Both the position numbers and the translations under genes were made by a program. The notes under the pieces are model-generated. The model saw only the letters and a list, made by a program, of their open reading frames with translations. It made no database searches and was not told the DNA's origin. From contig OZ244052.1 in the NCBI GenBank assembly GCA_965215125.1, positions 512,001 to 576,000 on the forward strand: a DNA stretch of 64,000 bases. The letters are read 5' to 3'. Below, one piece after another: positions 37,081 to 41,651 of the stretch. The DNA comes from an uncultured candidatus Porisulfidus sp. Its GTDB lineage: Bacteria > Pseudomonadota > Gammaproteobacteria > Poriferisulfidales > Oxydemutatoraceae. Position 1 is the stretch's first letter, and each line of letters opens with the position of its first letter.

Positions 37081-37263
37081 GGAGTGGTTGCAACGGGTAC
37101 ATTCCCCTCCTTTGGAGGGGTGGCAGGCTATGTCCGACGGAGTGGTTGCAACGGGTACATTCCCCTCCTTTGGAGGGGTGGCAGGCTATGTCCGACGGAA
37201 TGGTTGCAACGGGTACATTCCCCTCCTTTGGAGGGGTGGCAGGCGCAGCCTGACGGGGTGGTT
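37081..37263 (-). repeat. Three head-to-tail 58-bp REP-A-containing units
   Basis: Units start at 37081, 37139 and 37197; near identical, no unique spacers. Confidence 0.9.
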
Positions 37264-37467: not shown

Positions 37468-38204
37468 AGAGTAAATTAAGAGATAACGAGAACGCACTTG
37501 CGGACTTTAACCGAGCAATTAAGCTAGGCAAGAAACATCGAGATGCCTACTATATGAGAAGCTTCACCAAGTGTAGATTAGGAAATTTTCAGGGAGCACT
37601 CGTAGACTTAAATAAAGTTCTTAAAAAGGATTCCAAAGATGGTTTTGCCTACAACACACGAGGTTTTTCCAAATTTAAATTAGAAGACTACGAAGGGACA
37701 GCCAAAGACTTCAACAAAGTGGTTGAACTAGACCCGAACTATTCTACTAACTATGATGTAAGAGGTCTTAGTAAAGTTATATTGGGAGACTACGAGTCCG
37801 CAATCGCAGACTTCGACACATTGATTGAGCTAGACCCGGAATATGCTAATGCTTACCACAATAGAGGTGGTATTAAGGAAAAATTAGGAGACTTCAAGGA
37901 GGCGATTAAAGACTTTGACAGAGCGATTGAACTAGATCCAAATTATATTTATGCATACTATAACAGAGGTATTCTTAGAGGAGAGTCGGAAAACCTCAAG
38001 GGAGCGATTGAAGACTTCAGCAGAGTAATCGAGCTAAATCCAGAATATGCCGATGCTTACTATAACAGAGGCATTGTTAATGAAAACTTAAAAAACTACA
38101 CGAATGCCGTTGCCGACTTTGACGAAGCTATTAAGCTAGAACCATCTGATAAGGCTTATAGAGAAGCAAGACAACAGGCGCAACAAAAACTTGATAATTC
38201 CTAA
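37468..38204 (+). pseudogene. 5'-deleted paralog of TPR gene 34522-35436
   Basis: Leader joins directly to sequence equivalent to ~34699, losing the ATG and ~60 codons; rest of frame open. Confidence 0.6.
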
Positions 38205-38337
38205 TCCGTAGGGGGCATATCATTCCCTTCCTTGTAGATAGTATGGATGACCAGCTTTGCTGAAAGTTGGTTAAACTTTCATTTTAGTTCCCTTCTTAAG
38301 AGGGGTTTAATTAACCACTAAACAAAGGAGGTCATCC

Positions 38338-39486
38338 ATGACTAGTATACTGTATGTTGGCATTGATGTTGATGATAAGAGTTTCACTGCCACAGCCATT
38401 TCTAAACACAATAATTATCATTCCATTAAAACGCGTCCGGACTTTGCATCACTGCATAAGGCAATCACCAAAGTCGCTTTGCCGTATGAACAGATTAGGG
38501 TCTGTTATGAAGCAAGCTATTTAGGCTTTTCGTTAAAGCGACAATTTGATGCGCTGGGCATTCACTGCGATGTGATTGCGCCGTCGCTGATCCCGGTGCG
38601 TCCCTCGGATCGTATCAAGACCGATCGCCTAGATAGCGTCAAGCTGGCTGAATACTACCGACAAGGTATGTTGAAAATCGTCCACGATATTGATACTGAG
38701 ACCGAAGGTCACCGACAACTCATTCGTGGACACCAACAAGTGGTCAACACCTGCAAGATCTATAAACTGCAGATTTTGTCGTCGTGCCGTTATCGCGGGA
38801 TTAGTTATCGCACCAGTATGCAGGCCAAGAGCTATTGGACGAAGCAGCACATGGCATTCTTAAAGCGGCTCCTAGTCGACGACAGTTTAGATAAGTATTT
38901 CCGCCTCGATTTAGAGAACAAGTTATATCTATTGGAGACGCAACAAGGGGTTATCAGACGCTATGAGAACGATATACATCAGTTAGCGATATCCGAGCCG
39001 TATCGTCGGGCGGTCGGCTATTTATGTTGTATCAGAGGCATTGCCGAGTTGATTGCGATGACGCTGATTGTTGAGATTGGCGACATCGGTCGGTTTGTCA
39101 AGGCGCGTCATCTGGCCGGTTATGCCGGCTTCAGTATCAGTGAGTATAGTTCCGGTGGCAAGAGTCGCAAAGGGGGTATTACCGGGATGGGCAACAAATA
39201 CATCCGCACGGTGTGCGTGGAAGCCTGCCAGTTGGCGGGTAGACGCTATAGCGTGAATAAGGCATTGCGTGCCCGACGCGCCGACCAAGACCTAGTGGCT
39301 ATAGAGATAGGCGACCGTTGCATGAAGCGTTTGTATAAGAAGTATCAGACGATGTATCATGCCAACAAACCGTTCAACAAGATTAAGGTGGCGTGTGCCA
39401 GAGAGCTACTCGGTTTTGTGTGGGAAGCCTTGCGTGCTGCCCAGGCCGCTGAAAACGCATTGCACGCCGCACCGGTGGTTGAGTAA
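38338..39486 (+). CDS. IS110-family DEDD recombinase/transposase
   Basis: VGIDV, CYEA, KTD.LD (DEDD), SSGG serine loop, G.ITG.GN..IR, ARELLGF.W; AAGGAGG RBS. Confidence 0.95.
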   Translation: MTSILYVGIDVDDKSFTATAISKHNNYHSIKTRPDFASLHKAITKVALPYEQIRVCYEASYLGFSLKRQFDALGIHCDVIAPSLIPVRPSDRIKTDRLDSVKLAEYYRQGMLKIVHDIDTETEGHRQLIRGHQQVVNTCKIYKLQILSSCRYRGISYRTSMQAKSYWTKQHMAFLKRLLVDDSLDKYFRLDLENKLYLLETQQGVIRRYENDIHQLAISEPYRRAVGYLCCIRGIAELIAMTLIVEIGDIGRFVKARHLAGYAGFSISEYSSGGKSRKGGITGMGNKYIRTVCVEACQLAGRRYSVNKALRARRADQDLVAIEIGDRCMKRLYKKYQTMYHANKPFNKIKVACARELLGFVWEALRAAQAAENALHAAPVVE

Positions 39487-39539
39487 GCTCGTTAAGCAAG
39501 AGGCTGCCAGATAGAGTTCTGAGAGACCGAGGGAGTTGA

Positions 39540-39920
39540 AGCTAAAGTCAATGACAAGTTCCGAACTTAGATGCCGTCCTAGAGTATCTGCCCATAGAAA
39601 ACTGCCAGGCGTGATGCGTGGTAGGGCAACTGACCGTAGATTAAGGGGCACAGTTCATCCAATTAACTTATCATGTGGTAATGCGAAAGCAAAGTACACG
39701 AATATGAGGTTGATAATACCGAACGACTCATTAGTTGAGTACTTTAGCGGTGCTTCGCTCTGTCTCTCTTCGGTACAGCATGATGCCGTTAACAAGGAGA
39801 TAAAGCAGGTGCACGAAAGCCGCCACGACAAGTGGCGCATACACATACCTGATGCATGCTTTAAGAGGGGTGGCGCATTGCTATCGCTCGCTCCTTGTTG
39901 GCATCATCTGTGCCGTCATT
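39540..39920 (+). ncRNA. Putative bridge/seek RNA of the IS110 element (boundaries approximate)
   Basis: ATCTGCCC (39586) = reverse complement of right target; CCGTAG (39634) ~ left target+core; ATATGAG (39702) = donor end+core; long stem 39772-39914. Confidence 0.65.
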
Positions 39921-40201
39921 TAACCCTTGAGTTCTGGTGACTTTTGGGAATGTAGACTTCGGTAAAAATTTAACTTGACAAGCTGGTCATCCATATGAGG
40001 GGCAGATTTGCATGTCTGCCCTTAGGGTAGCAGGCGCAACCTGACGGAGTGATCACAGAGAGGGGCTGTTGAAAAAGTATCGTCATTACACAATCCAACC
40101 ACTTTGGACTTATAAGAACAGACCCTACTTGTCCGACCTACATACCCGTATTAAGACTCTGTAAAACGTTACGCAGATTAACCTACTGGCTTAATCGGCG
40201 G

Positions 40202-41170
40202 TCATCTCTTTAGCTTTTTAATTTCAGCGACAGATAAACCTGTGACTTCGGAAATCAACGAAACCTCCAGACCCTTTTGCAACATATTTAAGGCGATTTC
40301 GTGCATGCCTTGAACTCGGCCTTCCTCCATGCCCTGAACTCGGCCTTGCTCCATGCCTTTTGCCAGACCTTCCTTTAACGCACCGCGCCTTTCCAGTTGA
40401 ATCCCTATCTCATACTTCATGCGATCTATAGTCTCCCAGTGTGATTCTTTGTTTTTTGATATCTCCTCTAAATGTTCTAATATCATTTTCGTCTCTCCGT
40501 CTTGTGATAAATACGCTACTTGCTCGGGTGTCAATTCCGCCGAGTGCTTAATAATATAGCACCACCTATCCTTCATATCAACAAGGTCGCGGTAGCTCTT
40601 CTTGAACTTATTCAATTCCACTATGACGATCTTTGCACCGATATCGAAATGGTATTCTATCTCGTTGCGGTCTACAAATCCTATTTCAGTGATAAAGTTG
40701 TGCTTTCCTTTGAATACCGTGAACCGGGTAAATCCCAACGAGTAGGTCGGATTGAGGTTTGCATAGTCATCGCCACGGTTTAGGTCTTGAATAAACAGCA
40801 AAGCCCAATAGGCGAACATTCTAAGTAGGAAGTTTTTTTGGAAGGCGACTTGCATTTCTATATTGACATTTTCTCCGCCACTTAATTTGACGCTGAGGTC
40901 GAGGACGACCTGCTTGCCGTGTGGTTTAGTCGGTGGAATGGAGGTGTCTTTGAACCGTAGTTTATCACTTGATTGCTGCTGCTGTTGTTCGGCTGCTTTT
41001 TTAGAGGTGGCAGAAGTTTTGAGGTTTAGGACATCGACATCCGAGACATTATCGGAGATTGGCAAGAAGCTCTTAATGAGCGACAGCAGTAATCGCTTGT
41101 TGCCGGTAAAGTATCGTTTGAAGGCAATGTCTTTTGTCAGCGGTAAATATTTAGGTTGTTTTTTTGCCAT
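40202..41170 (-). CDS. Rpn-family (PD-(D/E)XK, YhgA-like) nuclease/putative transposase
   Basis: D.AFK.YF, LDL.V......NIEMQ, R..YWA, DRWCY, C-terminal G.E.G repeats and IA.NML..G.....I...TGLS. Confidence 0.9.
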   Translation of the reverse strand: MAKKQPKYLPLTKDIAFKRYFTGNKRLLLSLIKSFLPISDNVSDVDVLNLKTSATSKKAAEQQQQQSSDKLRFKDTSIPPTKPHGKQVVLDLSVKLSGGENVNIEMQVAFQKNFLLRMFAYWALLFIQDLNRGDDYANLNPTYSLGFTRFTVFKGKHNFITEIGFVDRNEIEYHFDIGAKIVIVELNKFKKSYRDLVDMKDRWCYIIKHSAELTPEQVAYLSQDGETKMILEHLEEISKNKESHWETIDRMKYEIGIQLERRGALKEGLAKGMEQGRVQGMEEGRVQGMHEIALNMLQKGLEVSLISEVTGLSVAEIKKLKR

Positions 41171-41389
41171 GAAATCTCCTGTAAATTTTAGTTAAAACCT
41201 ATAATTTGAGAGAATATTCGGGATGTTTTTAGACAAACGGATGAACAGTAGTAAATATCCGATAAATGGTATGAAATGTTGGGAAATAGTCTGTTTGGGC
41301 GGATTATTTCTTTTCTTGGGAAGCAATGATGGTTTGCGTAATCAGTGGCGCAAGGGGTGGTCGTGTCTGTACGAGTACGGTGTCGGTAC

Positions 41390-41514
41390 ATTCCCCTCCT
41401 TCGGAGGGGTGGCAGACGCAGCCTGACTGGGTGGTCGTGGAAAATCTGCACAAGTATAGTGCTAGTACATTCCCCTCCTTCGGAGGGGTGGCAGACGCAG
41501 CCTGACGGGATGGT
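41390..41514 (-). repeat. Two REP-A copies
   Basis: 41390-41436 and 41469-41514. Confidence 0.85.
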
Positions 41515-41651
41515 TCATAACCGTTTTCGCCACAACTTATTGAAAACCACCTATGCTTTCATTAAACTATCAAACAAAAACAACAACGGCATTACCGTAT
41601 GAAAATTGTGTCGGAAATACCGTATCAAGGCACACCAAAAGGAATTTAATT

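What the first reader, a model, noticed from the sequence alone, without database searches (positions are those of the whole stretch)
39540..39730. Readable bridge/seek-RNA guides in the IS 3' non-coding region
Seen, in order: ATCTGCCC (39586-93), the exact reverse complement of the 8 target bases right of the core (GGGCAGAT); CCGTAG (39634-39), which resembles left target+core (TTGTAG); TATC (~39669), complementary to the left donor end; ATATGAG (39702-08), identical to the right IS end+core. Established: IS110/IS1111 recombinases use a bispecific non-coding RNA, encoded downstream of the ORF in the IS1111 group. Inference: these are the target- and donor-binding loops of a potentially reprogrammable recombinase. 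The matches are short, so chance cannot be excluded by eye.
Basis: partly seen in the sequence, partly recalled or inferred. Interest (0 to 1): 0.75.

Follow-up and report, generated by a model that had tools for sequence, protein, structure and literature searches.

The report
Guide RNA of an IS1111-type element
The stretch is the guide (bridge/seek) RNA gene of a jumping gene of the IS110/IS1111 kind, and its short guide segments do match, and change together with, the DNA it inserts into, so it is a well-supported but ordinary new member of a known system.

Summary
All four strings are at the stated coordinates. They lie in the 513-nt 3' non-coding region of a 1762-bp IS (38238-39999). The IS has 15-bp subterminal inverted repeats and an AG core, and it sits in a REP-like hairpin. 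On the window alone the matches are only suggestive: the 8-mer has p about 0.04, the 7-mer about 0.11, jointly 0.003. Relatives settle it. A sister-species IS (74% aa, 6 copies) inserts at ACTTT-AG-GGCGGA, and its RNA carries CUUUAG and UCCGCCC exactly where this one has CCGUAG and AUCUGCCC. A 37% relative has the right end ...ACGAG and the guide AUACGAG. Each of 4 RNA lineages pairs best with its own flanks. Every substitution in a predicted stem keeps its pair. The order of the segments, top-strand match 5' of bottom-strand match, is the published IS1111 order. The left-end guide (UUAUC) is the weakest of the four. No RNA data exist. Verdict: a real IS1111-type two-loop bridge/seekRNA, a new member of a known kind. 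A conserved structured domain of about 190 nt downstream (39771-39963) remains unexplained.

The parts
38238..39999 (+). Insertion sequence, 1762 bp, counting the AG core once at its right end
   Evidence: Edges of the DNA shared by 5 copies in the own genome, plus empty REP sites L008 and L009 that read ...GTAG|GGGC....
38236..38237 (+). AG core, the copy on the target side at the left junction. The second copy is at 39998-39999.
   Evidence: AG is the only dinucleotide repeated at both junctions, and it is single in empty sites.
38243..38257 (+). Left subterminal inverted repeat ATGGATGACCAGCTT, preceded by the 5-nt extension ATAGT (38238-38242)
   Evidence: Perfect 15-bp inverted repeat with 39980-39994. 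The same repeat occurs in L041.
38338..39486 (+). Transposase/recombinase gene, 382 aa. DEDD is D10, E58, D96, D99; the SG motif is S272-G273.
   Evidence: Pfam PF01548 and PF02371. NCBIfam NF033542, IS110 family RNA-guided transposase, 176 bits against a cut-off of 140. Motif alignment to IS621, 8wt6.
39544..39736 (+). Two-loop bridge/seekRNA region closed by an outer stem (39550-54 with 39728-32; 39558-61 with 39721-24)
   Evidence: RNAalifold consensus of 8 copies from 4 lineages. The pair count gives 99.6% of cells paired.
39563..39656 (+). Target-binding loop module. Basal stem 39563-80 with 39644-56; apical hairpin 39603-23.
   Evidence: One compensatory pair changes G:C to U:A (columns 27/108). 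The apical hairpin is 7 nt shorter in G003, G004 and G001 while its stem is kept.
39586..39593 (+). Right-target guide AUCUGCCC, which pairs with the top strand of GGGCAGAT to the right of the core
   Evidence: 8 of 8 with this copy and 7 of 8 with L002 and L006. G004 has UCCGCCC against its flank G|GGCGGA in 6 of 6 copies.
39634..39641 (+). Left-target guide CCGUAG (left flank plus AG core; pairs with the bottom strand), followed by AU, which equals the first 2 nt of the IS left end
   Evidence: 6 of 6 with L002 and L004, 5 of 6 with L003 and L005, and 4 of 6 with the window copy. G004 has CUUUAG, against the flank CTTTAG in 5 of its 6 copies.
39660..39712 (+). Donor-binding loop module. Basal stem 39660-64 with 39708-12; apical hairpin 39671-39701.
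   Evidence: One compensatory pair changes C:G to U:A (columns 141/146).
39668..39672 (+). Left-end guide UUAUC, which pairs with the top strand of G|ATAG (core G plus left end; one G:U wobble). This is the weakest assignment.
   Evidence: G004 has AUUAUC against G|ATAAT, 6 of 6. L041 has ACUU and L042 has CCUU against AAGT and AAGG, in a register shifted by 2 nt.
39702..39709 (+). Right-end guide AUAUGAG (right end plus core; pairs with the bottom strand), followed by G, which equals the first nt of the right flank
   Evidence: Identical to 39993-39999. L042 has AUACGAG+U with the right end ACGAG and a flank that starts with T.
39771..39963 (+). Conserved structured domain of unknown role (39771-39915) plus a hairpin (39923-39963)
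   Evidence: 56 predicted pairs, 2 of them compensatory. Found only inside copies of this IS. Absent from L041 and L042. No Rfam match.
39975..39980 (+). -35 box TTGACA of a junction promoter. After circularisation it lies 18 nt from GATAGT (39999 plus 38238-42).
   Evidence: Script scan of the joined ends, 10 of 12 matches, crossing the junction. No sigma-70-like site was found on the + strand inside the NCR.
39980..39994 (+). Right subterminal inverted repeat AAGCTGGTCATCCAT, followed by ATG and the AG core
40000..40021 (+). REP-like hairpin GGGCAGAT-N6-GTCTGCCC, the right half of the target
   Evidence: About 45 such hairpins occur in the genome, and 87 NNNNNN-AG-GGGCRGAN sites on both strands.

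Best explanation
Window 39544-39736 encodes the non-coding bridge/seekRNA of an IS1111-group insertion sequence (38238-39999). The proposed mechanism follows; the steps up to the guide assignments are shown by sequence comparison, and the biochemistry is inferred from the family. The IS excises as a circle. Joining its ends creates a promoter: TTGACA, 18 nt, then GATAGT. This promoter transcribes tnp and the 3' NCR as one RNA, and the NCR is then processed to the guide RNA. The RNA has two internal loops. In the first loop, AUCUGCCC pairs with the top strand of the right half of the target (GGGCRGAY, the left arm of a REP hairpin). CCGUAG pairs with the bottom strand of the left half plus the AG core. 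In the second loop, UUAUC pairs with the top strand of the core G plus the IS left end. AUAUGAG pairs with the bottom strand of the IS right end plus the core. The DEDD/Ser recombinase, bound to both loops, exchanges strands at AG. This places the IS in one orientation between ...YYGTAG and GGGCRGA... of REP elements. Changing the loop letters retargets the element. That has happened in nature between this genome and its sister species.
For: The protein family is established by Pfam PF01548 and PF02371, and by NCBIfam IS110 family RNA-guided transposase at 176 bits against a cut-off of 140. The DEDD and SG motifs align to IS621.

The element has the IS1111 anatomy: 15-bp subterminal repeats, a 513-nt NCR downstream against about 100 nt upstream, and an AG core that is single in empty sites.

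The guide segments track their targets.
- G004 IS (74% aa, 6 copies): the flank is CTTTAG|...|GGCGGA and the RNA has CUUUAG and UCCGCCC at the aligned positions. That is 3 guide letters changed to match.
- L042 (37% aa): the right end is ...ACGAG and the guide is AUACGAG. The next RNA letter is U and the right flank starts with T.
- L041 and L042: ACUU and CCUU stand against left ends AAGT and AAGG.
- Specificity matrix: each of 4 of 4 RNA lineages scores highest with its own flank set.
- A sister subfamily of 5 metagenome loci shows the same layout, and the identity pairing is the single best of 120 permutations.

The structure agrees. The guides are unpaired in the consensus fold. Of 27 columns that differ between the window and G004, 6 lie in stems (4 pairs), and all 4 pairs stay standard, 2 of them by double change. 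The covariance model aligns L041's UCUCC and CAAAG under the two target guides.

The order, top-strand match 5' of bottom-strand match, is the order reported for IS1111 seekRNAs (PMC11187229, sections 9 and 14).
Against: - No expression data exist: 0 of the 5 runs listed as holding the stretch are on record as RNA.
- On the window alone the matches are weak (p 0.036 and 0.11), and two of the four are at chance level.
- Only 4 RNA lineages were available, and two pairs of them are close kin. Covariation therefore rests on few independent events, and 35 of 41 stem pairs never vary.
- In the single-sequence MFE fold, AUCUGC pairs with GUAGAU.
- The window copy's own left flank matches the guide at only 4 of 6 positions.
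- At 2 sites (L007 and G003) the right flank matches only 4-5 nt.
- G003's variant guide UUCGCCC predicts GGGCGAA targets, of which G003 has only 2.
- The left-end guide needs a G:U wobble, and its register is shifted by 2 nt relative to L041 and L042.
- The covariance model hit L041 only at E = 0.052 and missed L042.
- 3 of the 5 genomic copies are disrupted.
Confidence: 0.85

Rival explanations
1. Only the first loop is a guide, a target-seeking seekRNA. In this reading the IS ends are recognised by the protein through the 15-bp subterminal repeats. The second loop's resemblance to the ends (UUAUC, AUAUGAG) would be scaffold sequence or coincidence.
For: For ISEc11 the short 82-nt seekRNA, which holds the two target matches, sufficed for movement (PMC11187229, section 10). 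The second loop is identical in the window and in G004, so it gives no covariation there. The left-end match is 4-5 nt with a wobble and is at chance level on the window. Its register differs between lineages.
Against: L042 changes the right end (ATG to ACG) and the guide (AUAUGAG to AUACGAG) together. L041 and L042 change ACUU/CCUU with AAGT/AAGG. The two loops share one layout, with the top-strand match 5' and the bottom-strand match plus core 3'. The guide matches cover exactly the 10 bp between the two subterminal repeats in the circle junction.
Confidence: 0.12
2. The matches are chance, or a captured REP arm. Because the target is a palindrome, ATCTGCCC also resembles the other REP arm (GTCTGCCC), so the NCR could simply contain a REP remnant with no guide function.
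For: The window-alone statistics are modest. The REP right arm at 40013-40021 resembles 39584-39593.
Against: L041 and L042 insert at non-palindromic, non-REP sites and still carry matching segments at the aligned positions. The left-target guide is not part of the palindrome, yet it changes with the flank in G004. The own-flank score is best for 4 of 4 lineages.
Confidence: 0.04
3. The RNA gene is real, but the family in this genome is a decaying relic that no longer moves.
For: 3 of the 5 copies are split or truncated by other elements. The copies differ by 2-3%. One copy has the right end ATCAG against the guide AUAUGAG. Contigs of 4 public runs show the same occupied site and no excision joint.
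Against: Three copies keep an open 382-aa frame at 97-100% identity. The guides are invariant in all 4 NCR copies. The subterminal repeats and the -35 box are intact.
Confidence: 0.25

Closest known systems
IS1111-family seekRNAs of ISEc11, ISPa11, ISKpn4 and ISPst6 (Siddiquee et al. 2024, PMC11187229; sections 6, 8, 9, 10, 13 and 14 read)
   Same: The NCR lies downstream of tnp. Subterminal inverted repeats are present. [quoted passage not shown] A junction promoter is the only evident promoter. Like ISPa11, this IS targets a REP. Close relatives show natural retargeting (ISEc11 against ISXne4 there; the window against G004 here).
   Different: The recombinase has 382 aa against the 330-350 aa reported for the IS1111 family, and it is at most 35% identical to any plasmid-borne relative. 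The NCR is 513 nt and carries an extra structured domain of about 190 nt. A second, donor-matching loop is readable here, which that paper did not describe for IS1111 elements in the sections I read.
IS621 bridge RNA (Durrant et al. 2024, PMC11208160, passages; Hiraizumi et al. 2024, PMC11208158, passages; PMC13626964, passages)
   Same: There are two internal loops, one for the target and one for the donor. Each loop has one guide for the bottom strand of the left half plus core and one for the top strand of the right half. The core is 2 nt. The recombinase is DEDD plus Ser. The target is a REP.
   Different: The RNA is encoded in the right end, not the left. The order of the guides within each loop is reversed. 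The core is AG, not CT. The subterminal repeats are long. IS621's handshake dinucleotides follow the top-strand guides, whereas here the only extension seen follows the bottom-strand guides. Protein similarity is limited to the C-terminal domain at E = 5e-5.
ISPpu9 of Pseudomonas putida (PMC12288879, passages)
   Same: It inserts into REP elements and has AG dinucleotides at both ends.
   Different: ISPpu9 belongs to the IS110 group, without subterminal repeats and with its bridge RNA upstream of tnp.

Membership tests
IS110 family, IS1111 group (insertion sequence) | DEDD (RuvC-like) N-terminal domain and PF02371 C-terminal domain with a catalytic Ser in an SG motif | tested here: met
   PF01548 at 31.5 bits (cut-off 29) and PF02371 at 58.8 bits (cut-off 21.3). 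NF033542 at 176 bits (cut-off 140). GIDVD, CYEAS, KTDRLD and YSSGG line up with IS621 motifs. The N-terminal phmmer alignment on its own is weak.
IS110 family, IS1111 group (insertion sequence) | Subterminal inverted repeats of 7-17 bp, set in from the ends | tested here: met
   A perfect 15-bp repeat at 38243-57 and 39980-94, each 5 nt from its end.
IS110 family, IS1111 group (insertion sequence) | The longer non-coding region lies downstream of tnp | tested here: met
   513 nt downstream (39487-39999) against 100 nt upstream (38238-38337).
IS110 family, IS1111 group (insertion sequence) | Site- and orientation-specific insertion at a short core, with no ordinary target duplication | tested here: met
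   In the own genome, 5 of 5 left junctions and 4 of 4 readable right junctions have the AG core next to a REP-like element; the fifth copy is truncated before its right end. Empty sites read GTAG|GGGC. The same holds for 6 of 6 copies in G004.
IS110 family, IS1111 group (insertion sequence) | Recombinase length of 330-350 aa and placement in the IS1111 clade | tested here: inconclusive
   382 aa, outside the range quoted in PMC11187229 section 6. No tree was built against ISfinder references.
Bridge RNA / seekRNA, IS1111 type | [quoted passage not shown] | tested here: met
   39586-93 is the reverse complement of the right flank. 39634-39 is identical to the left flank plus core. Both change with the target in G004.
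Bridge RNA / seekRNA, IS1111 type | A second loop complementary to the donor (the joined IS ends) | tested here: met
   The right-end guide is 7 of 7 and changes with the end in L042. The left-end guide is 5 nt with one wobble and covaries in L041 and L042 at a shifted register. The left-end half is weak.
Bridge RNA / seekRNA, IS1111 type | Guides lie in internal loops between conserved stems | tested here: met
   Consensus fold. 99.6% of cells are paired against 30-50% when the partners are slid. There are 2 compensatory pairs, and 35 of 41 pairs are invariant and so uninformative.
Bridge RNA / seekRNA, IS1111 type | The RNA is expressed, binds the recombinase and is required for transposition | not testable with these tools
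   No RNA run holds the stretch.
Rfam families | A match to a curated covariance model | tested here: not met
   Only 3 hits, at E = 0.48-1, far below the gathering scores and on the minus strand.

The most novel reading that the evidence does not exclude
The conserved, strongly folded stretch of about 190 nt between the two-loop RNA and the right subterminal repeat (39771-39963) is a functional third module of this bridge RNA transcript. It might be a processing, stability or regulatory domain, or an antisense RNA gene. It is absent from the shorter relatives. In addition, the 1-2 nt extensions that follow the bottom-strand guides (AU after CCGUAG, G after AUAUGAG, U in L042) may be a mirror-image 'handshake' that acts on the bottom strand in IS1111-type elements.
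Probability: 0.2. Interest if true: 0.55.

Novelty: new member of a known kind. Interest (0 to 1): 0.3.

Why it matters
The finding adds a fully readable IS1111-type bridge RNA. All four guides, the core, the donor spacer and the target family are defined. It comes from a divergent recombinase: 382 aa, and at most 35% identical to plasmid-borne relatives. It also gives a clean natural example of retargeting between sister species, from one flank of a REP hairpin to the other. Such pairs are useful for learning the guide rules of the less-studied IS1111 branch. The biology itself (RNA-guided, REP-targeting, AG core) is already established.

Tried and rejected
- Rfam scan of 38100-40200 at E up to 10 gave only noise.
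- RNA evidence: no RNA holder is listed. 5 runs from 2 studies hold the DNA.
- I laid the contigs of 4 of these 5 runs on 37700-40500. The occupied site is bridged on both sides, no joint skips the IS, and loose ends come from other REP and IS copies. Contigs cannot show absence.
- A handshake next to the top-strand guide, as in IS621: the letters after AUCUGCCC (AUAG) are not complementary to the core plus right end. Rejected by eye.
- TCCTTGT at 39892 (its complement at 39792) matches this copy's left flank, but it is part of a long hairpin with a compensatory change in G004 and has p = 0.12. I treat it as coincidence.
- Prediction for G003: its guide UUCGCCC should have many GGGCGAA targets. 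Only 2 sites were found in G003, so there is no support. That copy is an internally deleted relic.
- Covariance model R1 on 30 of the 52 loci held: L041 matched at E = 0.052, and L042 and the roughly 30% relatives did not match. The model is built from near-identical sequences.
- The genome-contig scan found only one close fragment. The metagenome scan used only two N-terminal peptide patterns and returned relatives of 43% identity or less. No lineage between 43% and 74% could be fetched.
- A paper search for Oxydemutator with 'insertion sequence' listed 8 papers, none holding the first term.
- Papers' supplements are closed. Durrant's Supplementary Table 5 and Siddiquee's supplementary figures of long seekRNAs might already show comparable extensions or donor loops.

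Full report
WHAT IS THERE

The finding lies in the 3' part of an insertion sequence. A search of the window's own 2.22-Mb genome with 38200-40030 found 5 copies: 2 uninterrupted and 3 split or truncated. The shared DNA starts right after ...GTAG on the left and ends with ...CCATATGAG on the right. Empty sites read ...YYGTAG|GGGCGGA... (L008, L009).

The IS is therefore 38238-39999 (1762 bp). Its core is AG, present at both junctions and single in empty sites. The target is a REP-like hairpin, GGGCRGAC-N7-GTCYGCCC. About 45 such hairpins occur in the genome. On both strands there are 87 sites of the form NNNNNN-AG-GGGCRGAN.

The IS has perfect 15-bp subterminal inverted repeats (38243-57 and 39980-94), each set 5 nt in from its end.

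The 382-aa ORF (38338-39486) hits Pfam DEDD_Tnp_IS110 and Transposase_20. It also hits NCBIfam 'IS110 family RNA-guided transposase' at 176 bits against a cut-off of 140. Its GIDVD, CYEAS, KTDRLD and YSSGG motifs line up with the catalytic D, E, D, D and S of IS621 (residue roles taken from PMC11208158 passages).

The NCR downstream of tnp is 513 nt; the one upstream is 100 nt. These are the features that define the IS1111 group (PMC11187229 section 6; PMC11208160 passages).

THE OBSERVATION

- ATCTGCCC at 39586-93 is the exact reverse complement of the 8 bases right of the IS.
- CCGTAG is at 39634-39.
- TATC is at 39669-72.
- ATATGAG at 39702-08 is identical to the last 7 bases of the IS.

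On this copy alone the case is only suggestive. In 5000 dinucleotide shuffles of the NCR, an equally long match to the right flank arose in 3.6%. An equally long match to the right end arose in 11%, and both together in 0.34%. The left-flank and left-end matches were at chance level.

EVIDENCE FROM OTHER COPIES AND RELATIVES

CCGTAG is 6 of 6 identical to the left flank plus core of two other copies (L002, L004). It is 5 of 6 identical for two more.

A sister-species genome (G004) holds 6 copies of an IS whose recombinase is 74% identical.
- The G004 copies sit at CTTTAG|IS|GGCGGA. The left flank is CTTTAG in 5 of 6 copies and GTTAG in the other. The right flank is the same in 6 of 6.
- In the aligned NCR, CCGUAG has become CUUUAG and AUCUGCCC has become UCCGCCC. 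Three guide letters have changed to the letters the new target needs.
- That IS uses the other flank type of the same kind of REP, so the retargeting is natural.

Two metagenome relatives have the same subterminal repeat type, intact ends and non-REP targets (L041 at 43% and L042 at 37% identity).
- L042's right end is ...CCATACGAG and its RNA reads AAUACGAG where the window has AAUAUGAG.
- L041 and L042 have left ends AAGTA and AAGGT, and their RNA segments read ACUU and CCUU.
- L041 has UCUCCU and CAAAG against its target ...CAAAG|GAGA.
- L042 has GGAACU against AG|TTCC.

In a matrix of 6 RNAs against 11 flank sets, each of the 4 RNA lineages scores best with its own flanks. For the two target guides alone, the identity pairing is the best of the 24 permutations by my hand count. 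With 4 lineages, 1 in 24 is the smallest p value possible.

A further subfamily was tested: 5 metagenome loci at about 33% identity, inserting at T-AG-GAGG-like sites. It shows the same layout, and the identity pairing is the single best of 120 permutations.

STRUCTURE

RNAalifold on 8 copies from 4 lineages gives an outer stem and two stem-loop-stem modules. The guide segments are unpaired, on the two sides of each internal loop.

Between the window and G004, 27 of 193 columns differ. Six of these lie in predicted stems (4 pairs), and all 4 pairs stay standard. Two of the pairs change on both sides (G:C to U:A and C:G to U:A). A 7-nt deletion in three lineages removes only the tip of the first apical hairpin.

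The test is limited, because 35 of 41 pairs never vary. The single-sequence MFE fold pairs AUCUGC with GUAGAU. That pairing is not kept in G004 and is not in the consensus.

The covariance model built from these copies aligns L041's guide candidates under the window's guides, but only at E = 0.052. It misses L042.

HOW IT MOST LIKELY WORKS

The following is inferred from the family. It rests on PMC11187229 sections 8-10 and 14, PMC11208158 passages and PMC13626964 passages.
- The excised circle joins TTGACA (39975-80) to GATAGT at 18 nt, giving a junction promoter. No sigma-70-like site lies on the + strand in the NCR.
- tnp and the NCR are co-transcribed, and the RNA is processed.
- The first loop binds the target and the second loop binds the joined ends.
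- In each loop, the 5' segment pairs with the top strand to the right of the core. The 3' segment pairs with the bottom strand to the left of the core, including AG.
- The two donor guides cover exactly the 10 bp between the subterminal repeats of the circle junction.
- The order within each loop is the reverse of IS621's and is the order reported for IS1111 seekRNAs.

WEAK POINTS
- No RNA data exist.
- Independent lineages are few.
- The left-end guide is 5 nt with a G:U wobble and has a 2-nt register shift relative to L041 and L042.
- At two insertion sites the right flank matches only 4-5 nt.
- G003's variant guide has no abundant matching target.
- 3 of the 5 copies are disrupted by other elements.

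COMPARISON WITH WHAT IS KNOWN, AND NOVELTY

This is an IS1111-type bridge/seekRNA. Durrant et al. predicted bridge RNAs in 93% of IS1111 elements, so its presence is expected.

It differs from the studied examples in three ways:
- The recombinase is longer and divergent: 382 aa, and at most 35% identical to any plasmid-borne relative.
- The NCR is long.
- A structured domain of about 190 nt (39771-39963) follows the two-loop RNA. It has 56 predicted pairs, 2 of them compensatory. It occurs only inside this IS lineage and is absent from L041 and L042. It has no Rfam match and is unexplained.

The bottom-strand guides also run 1-2 nt past the core into the sequence of the integrated junction. 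One lineage covaries there (L042). This is only a hint of a handshake-like contact.

A relative's record (L011, 96% identical over a fragment) is titled as a Candidatus Oxydemutatoraceae MAG. Nothing suggests a pathogen.

VERDICT

This is a new member of a known kind, of modest interest.

Noticed in passing
window 39771-39963: A conserved, strongly folded domain lies between the bridge RNA and the right subterminal repeat. It has 56 predicted pairs, 2 of them compensatory. It is found only inside this IS lineage, is absent from the shorter relatives L041 and L042, and has no Rfam match.
   Followed up: partly
window-equivalent 39226-39230 in L004/L006 and L005/L007; 39573 in L003: Two copies of the IS are split at the same tnp position (5-bp overlap) by a 1.82-kb element that is present in 6 copies in the genome. 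One of those copies carries a nested 1.13-kb element. A third IS copy is cut inside the bridge RNA gene by a repeat of about 0.95 kb.
   Followed up: partly
L013, L030, L033, L035, L037, L038 (G004): The sister-species IS (74% aa, 6 copies) targets the other flank type of the REP hairpin (ACTTT-AG-GGCGGA) with matching guide letters. This is a natural retargeting pair.
   Followed up: yes
L043, L045, L046, L048, L049 (metagenome contigs): A second subfamily, about 33% identical, has the subterminal repeat TATGTAGTGACC and inserts at T-AG-GAGG-like sites that look like ribosome-binding sites just upstream of genes. Its two target-guide windows pair best with their own flanks (1 of 120 permutations).
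   Followed up: partly
window 38248-38273 and 38289-38305: Two hairpins followed by T-rich runs lie in the IS left end, upstream of tnp. They may stop read-through transcription from outside the element.
   Followed up: no
window 37081-37244: A 58-bp tandem repeat, 2.8 copies, 99% matching. It contains CCCCTCC...GGAGGGG palindromes. Similar repeated ORF-like text occurs near 41220-41600.
   Followed up: no
L010 (G000:C1 about 1121503-1121538): A REP hairpin is preceded by TCCATATGAG, the last 10 bases of the IS right end, with no IS attached. It may be a footprint or a remnant.
   Followed up: no
G004:C2 262355-272565: An array of about 20 hits of TAGGGGCGAAC spaced roughly 267 bp apart, that is, a long tandem repeat in the sister genome.
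   Followed up: no
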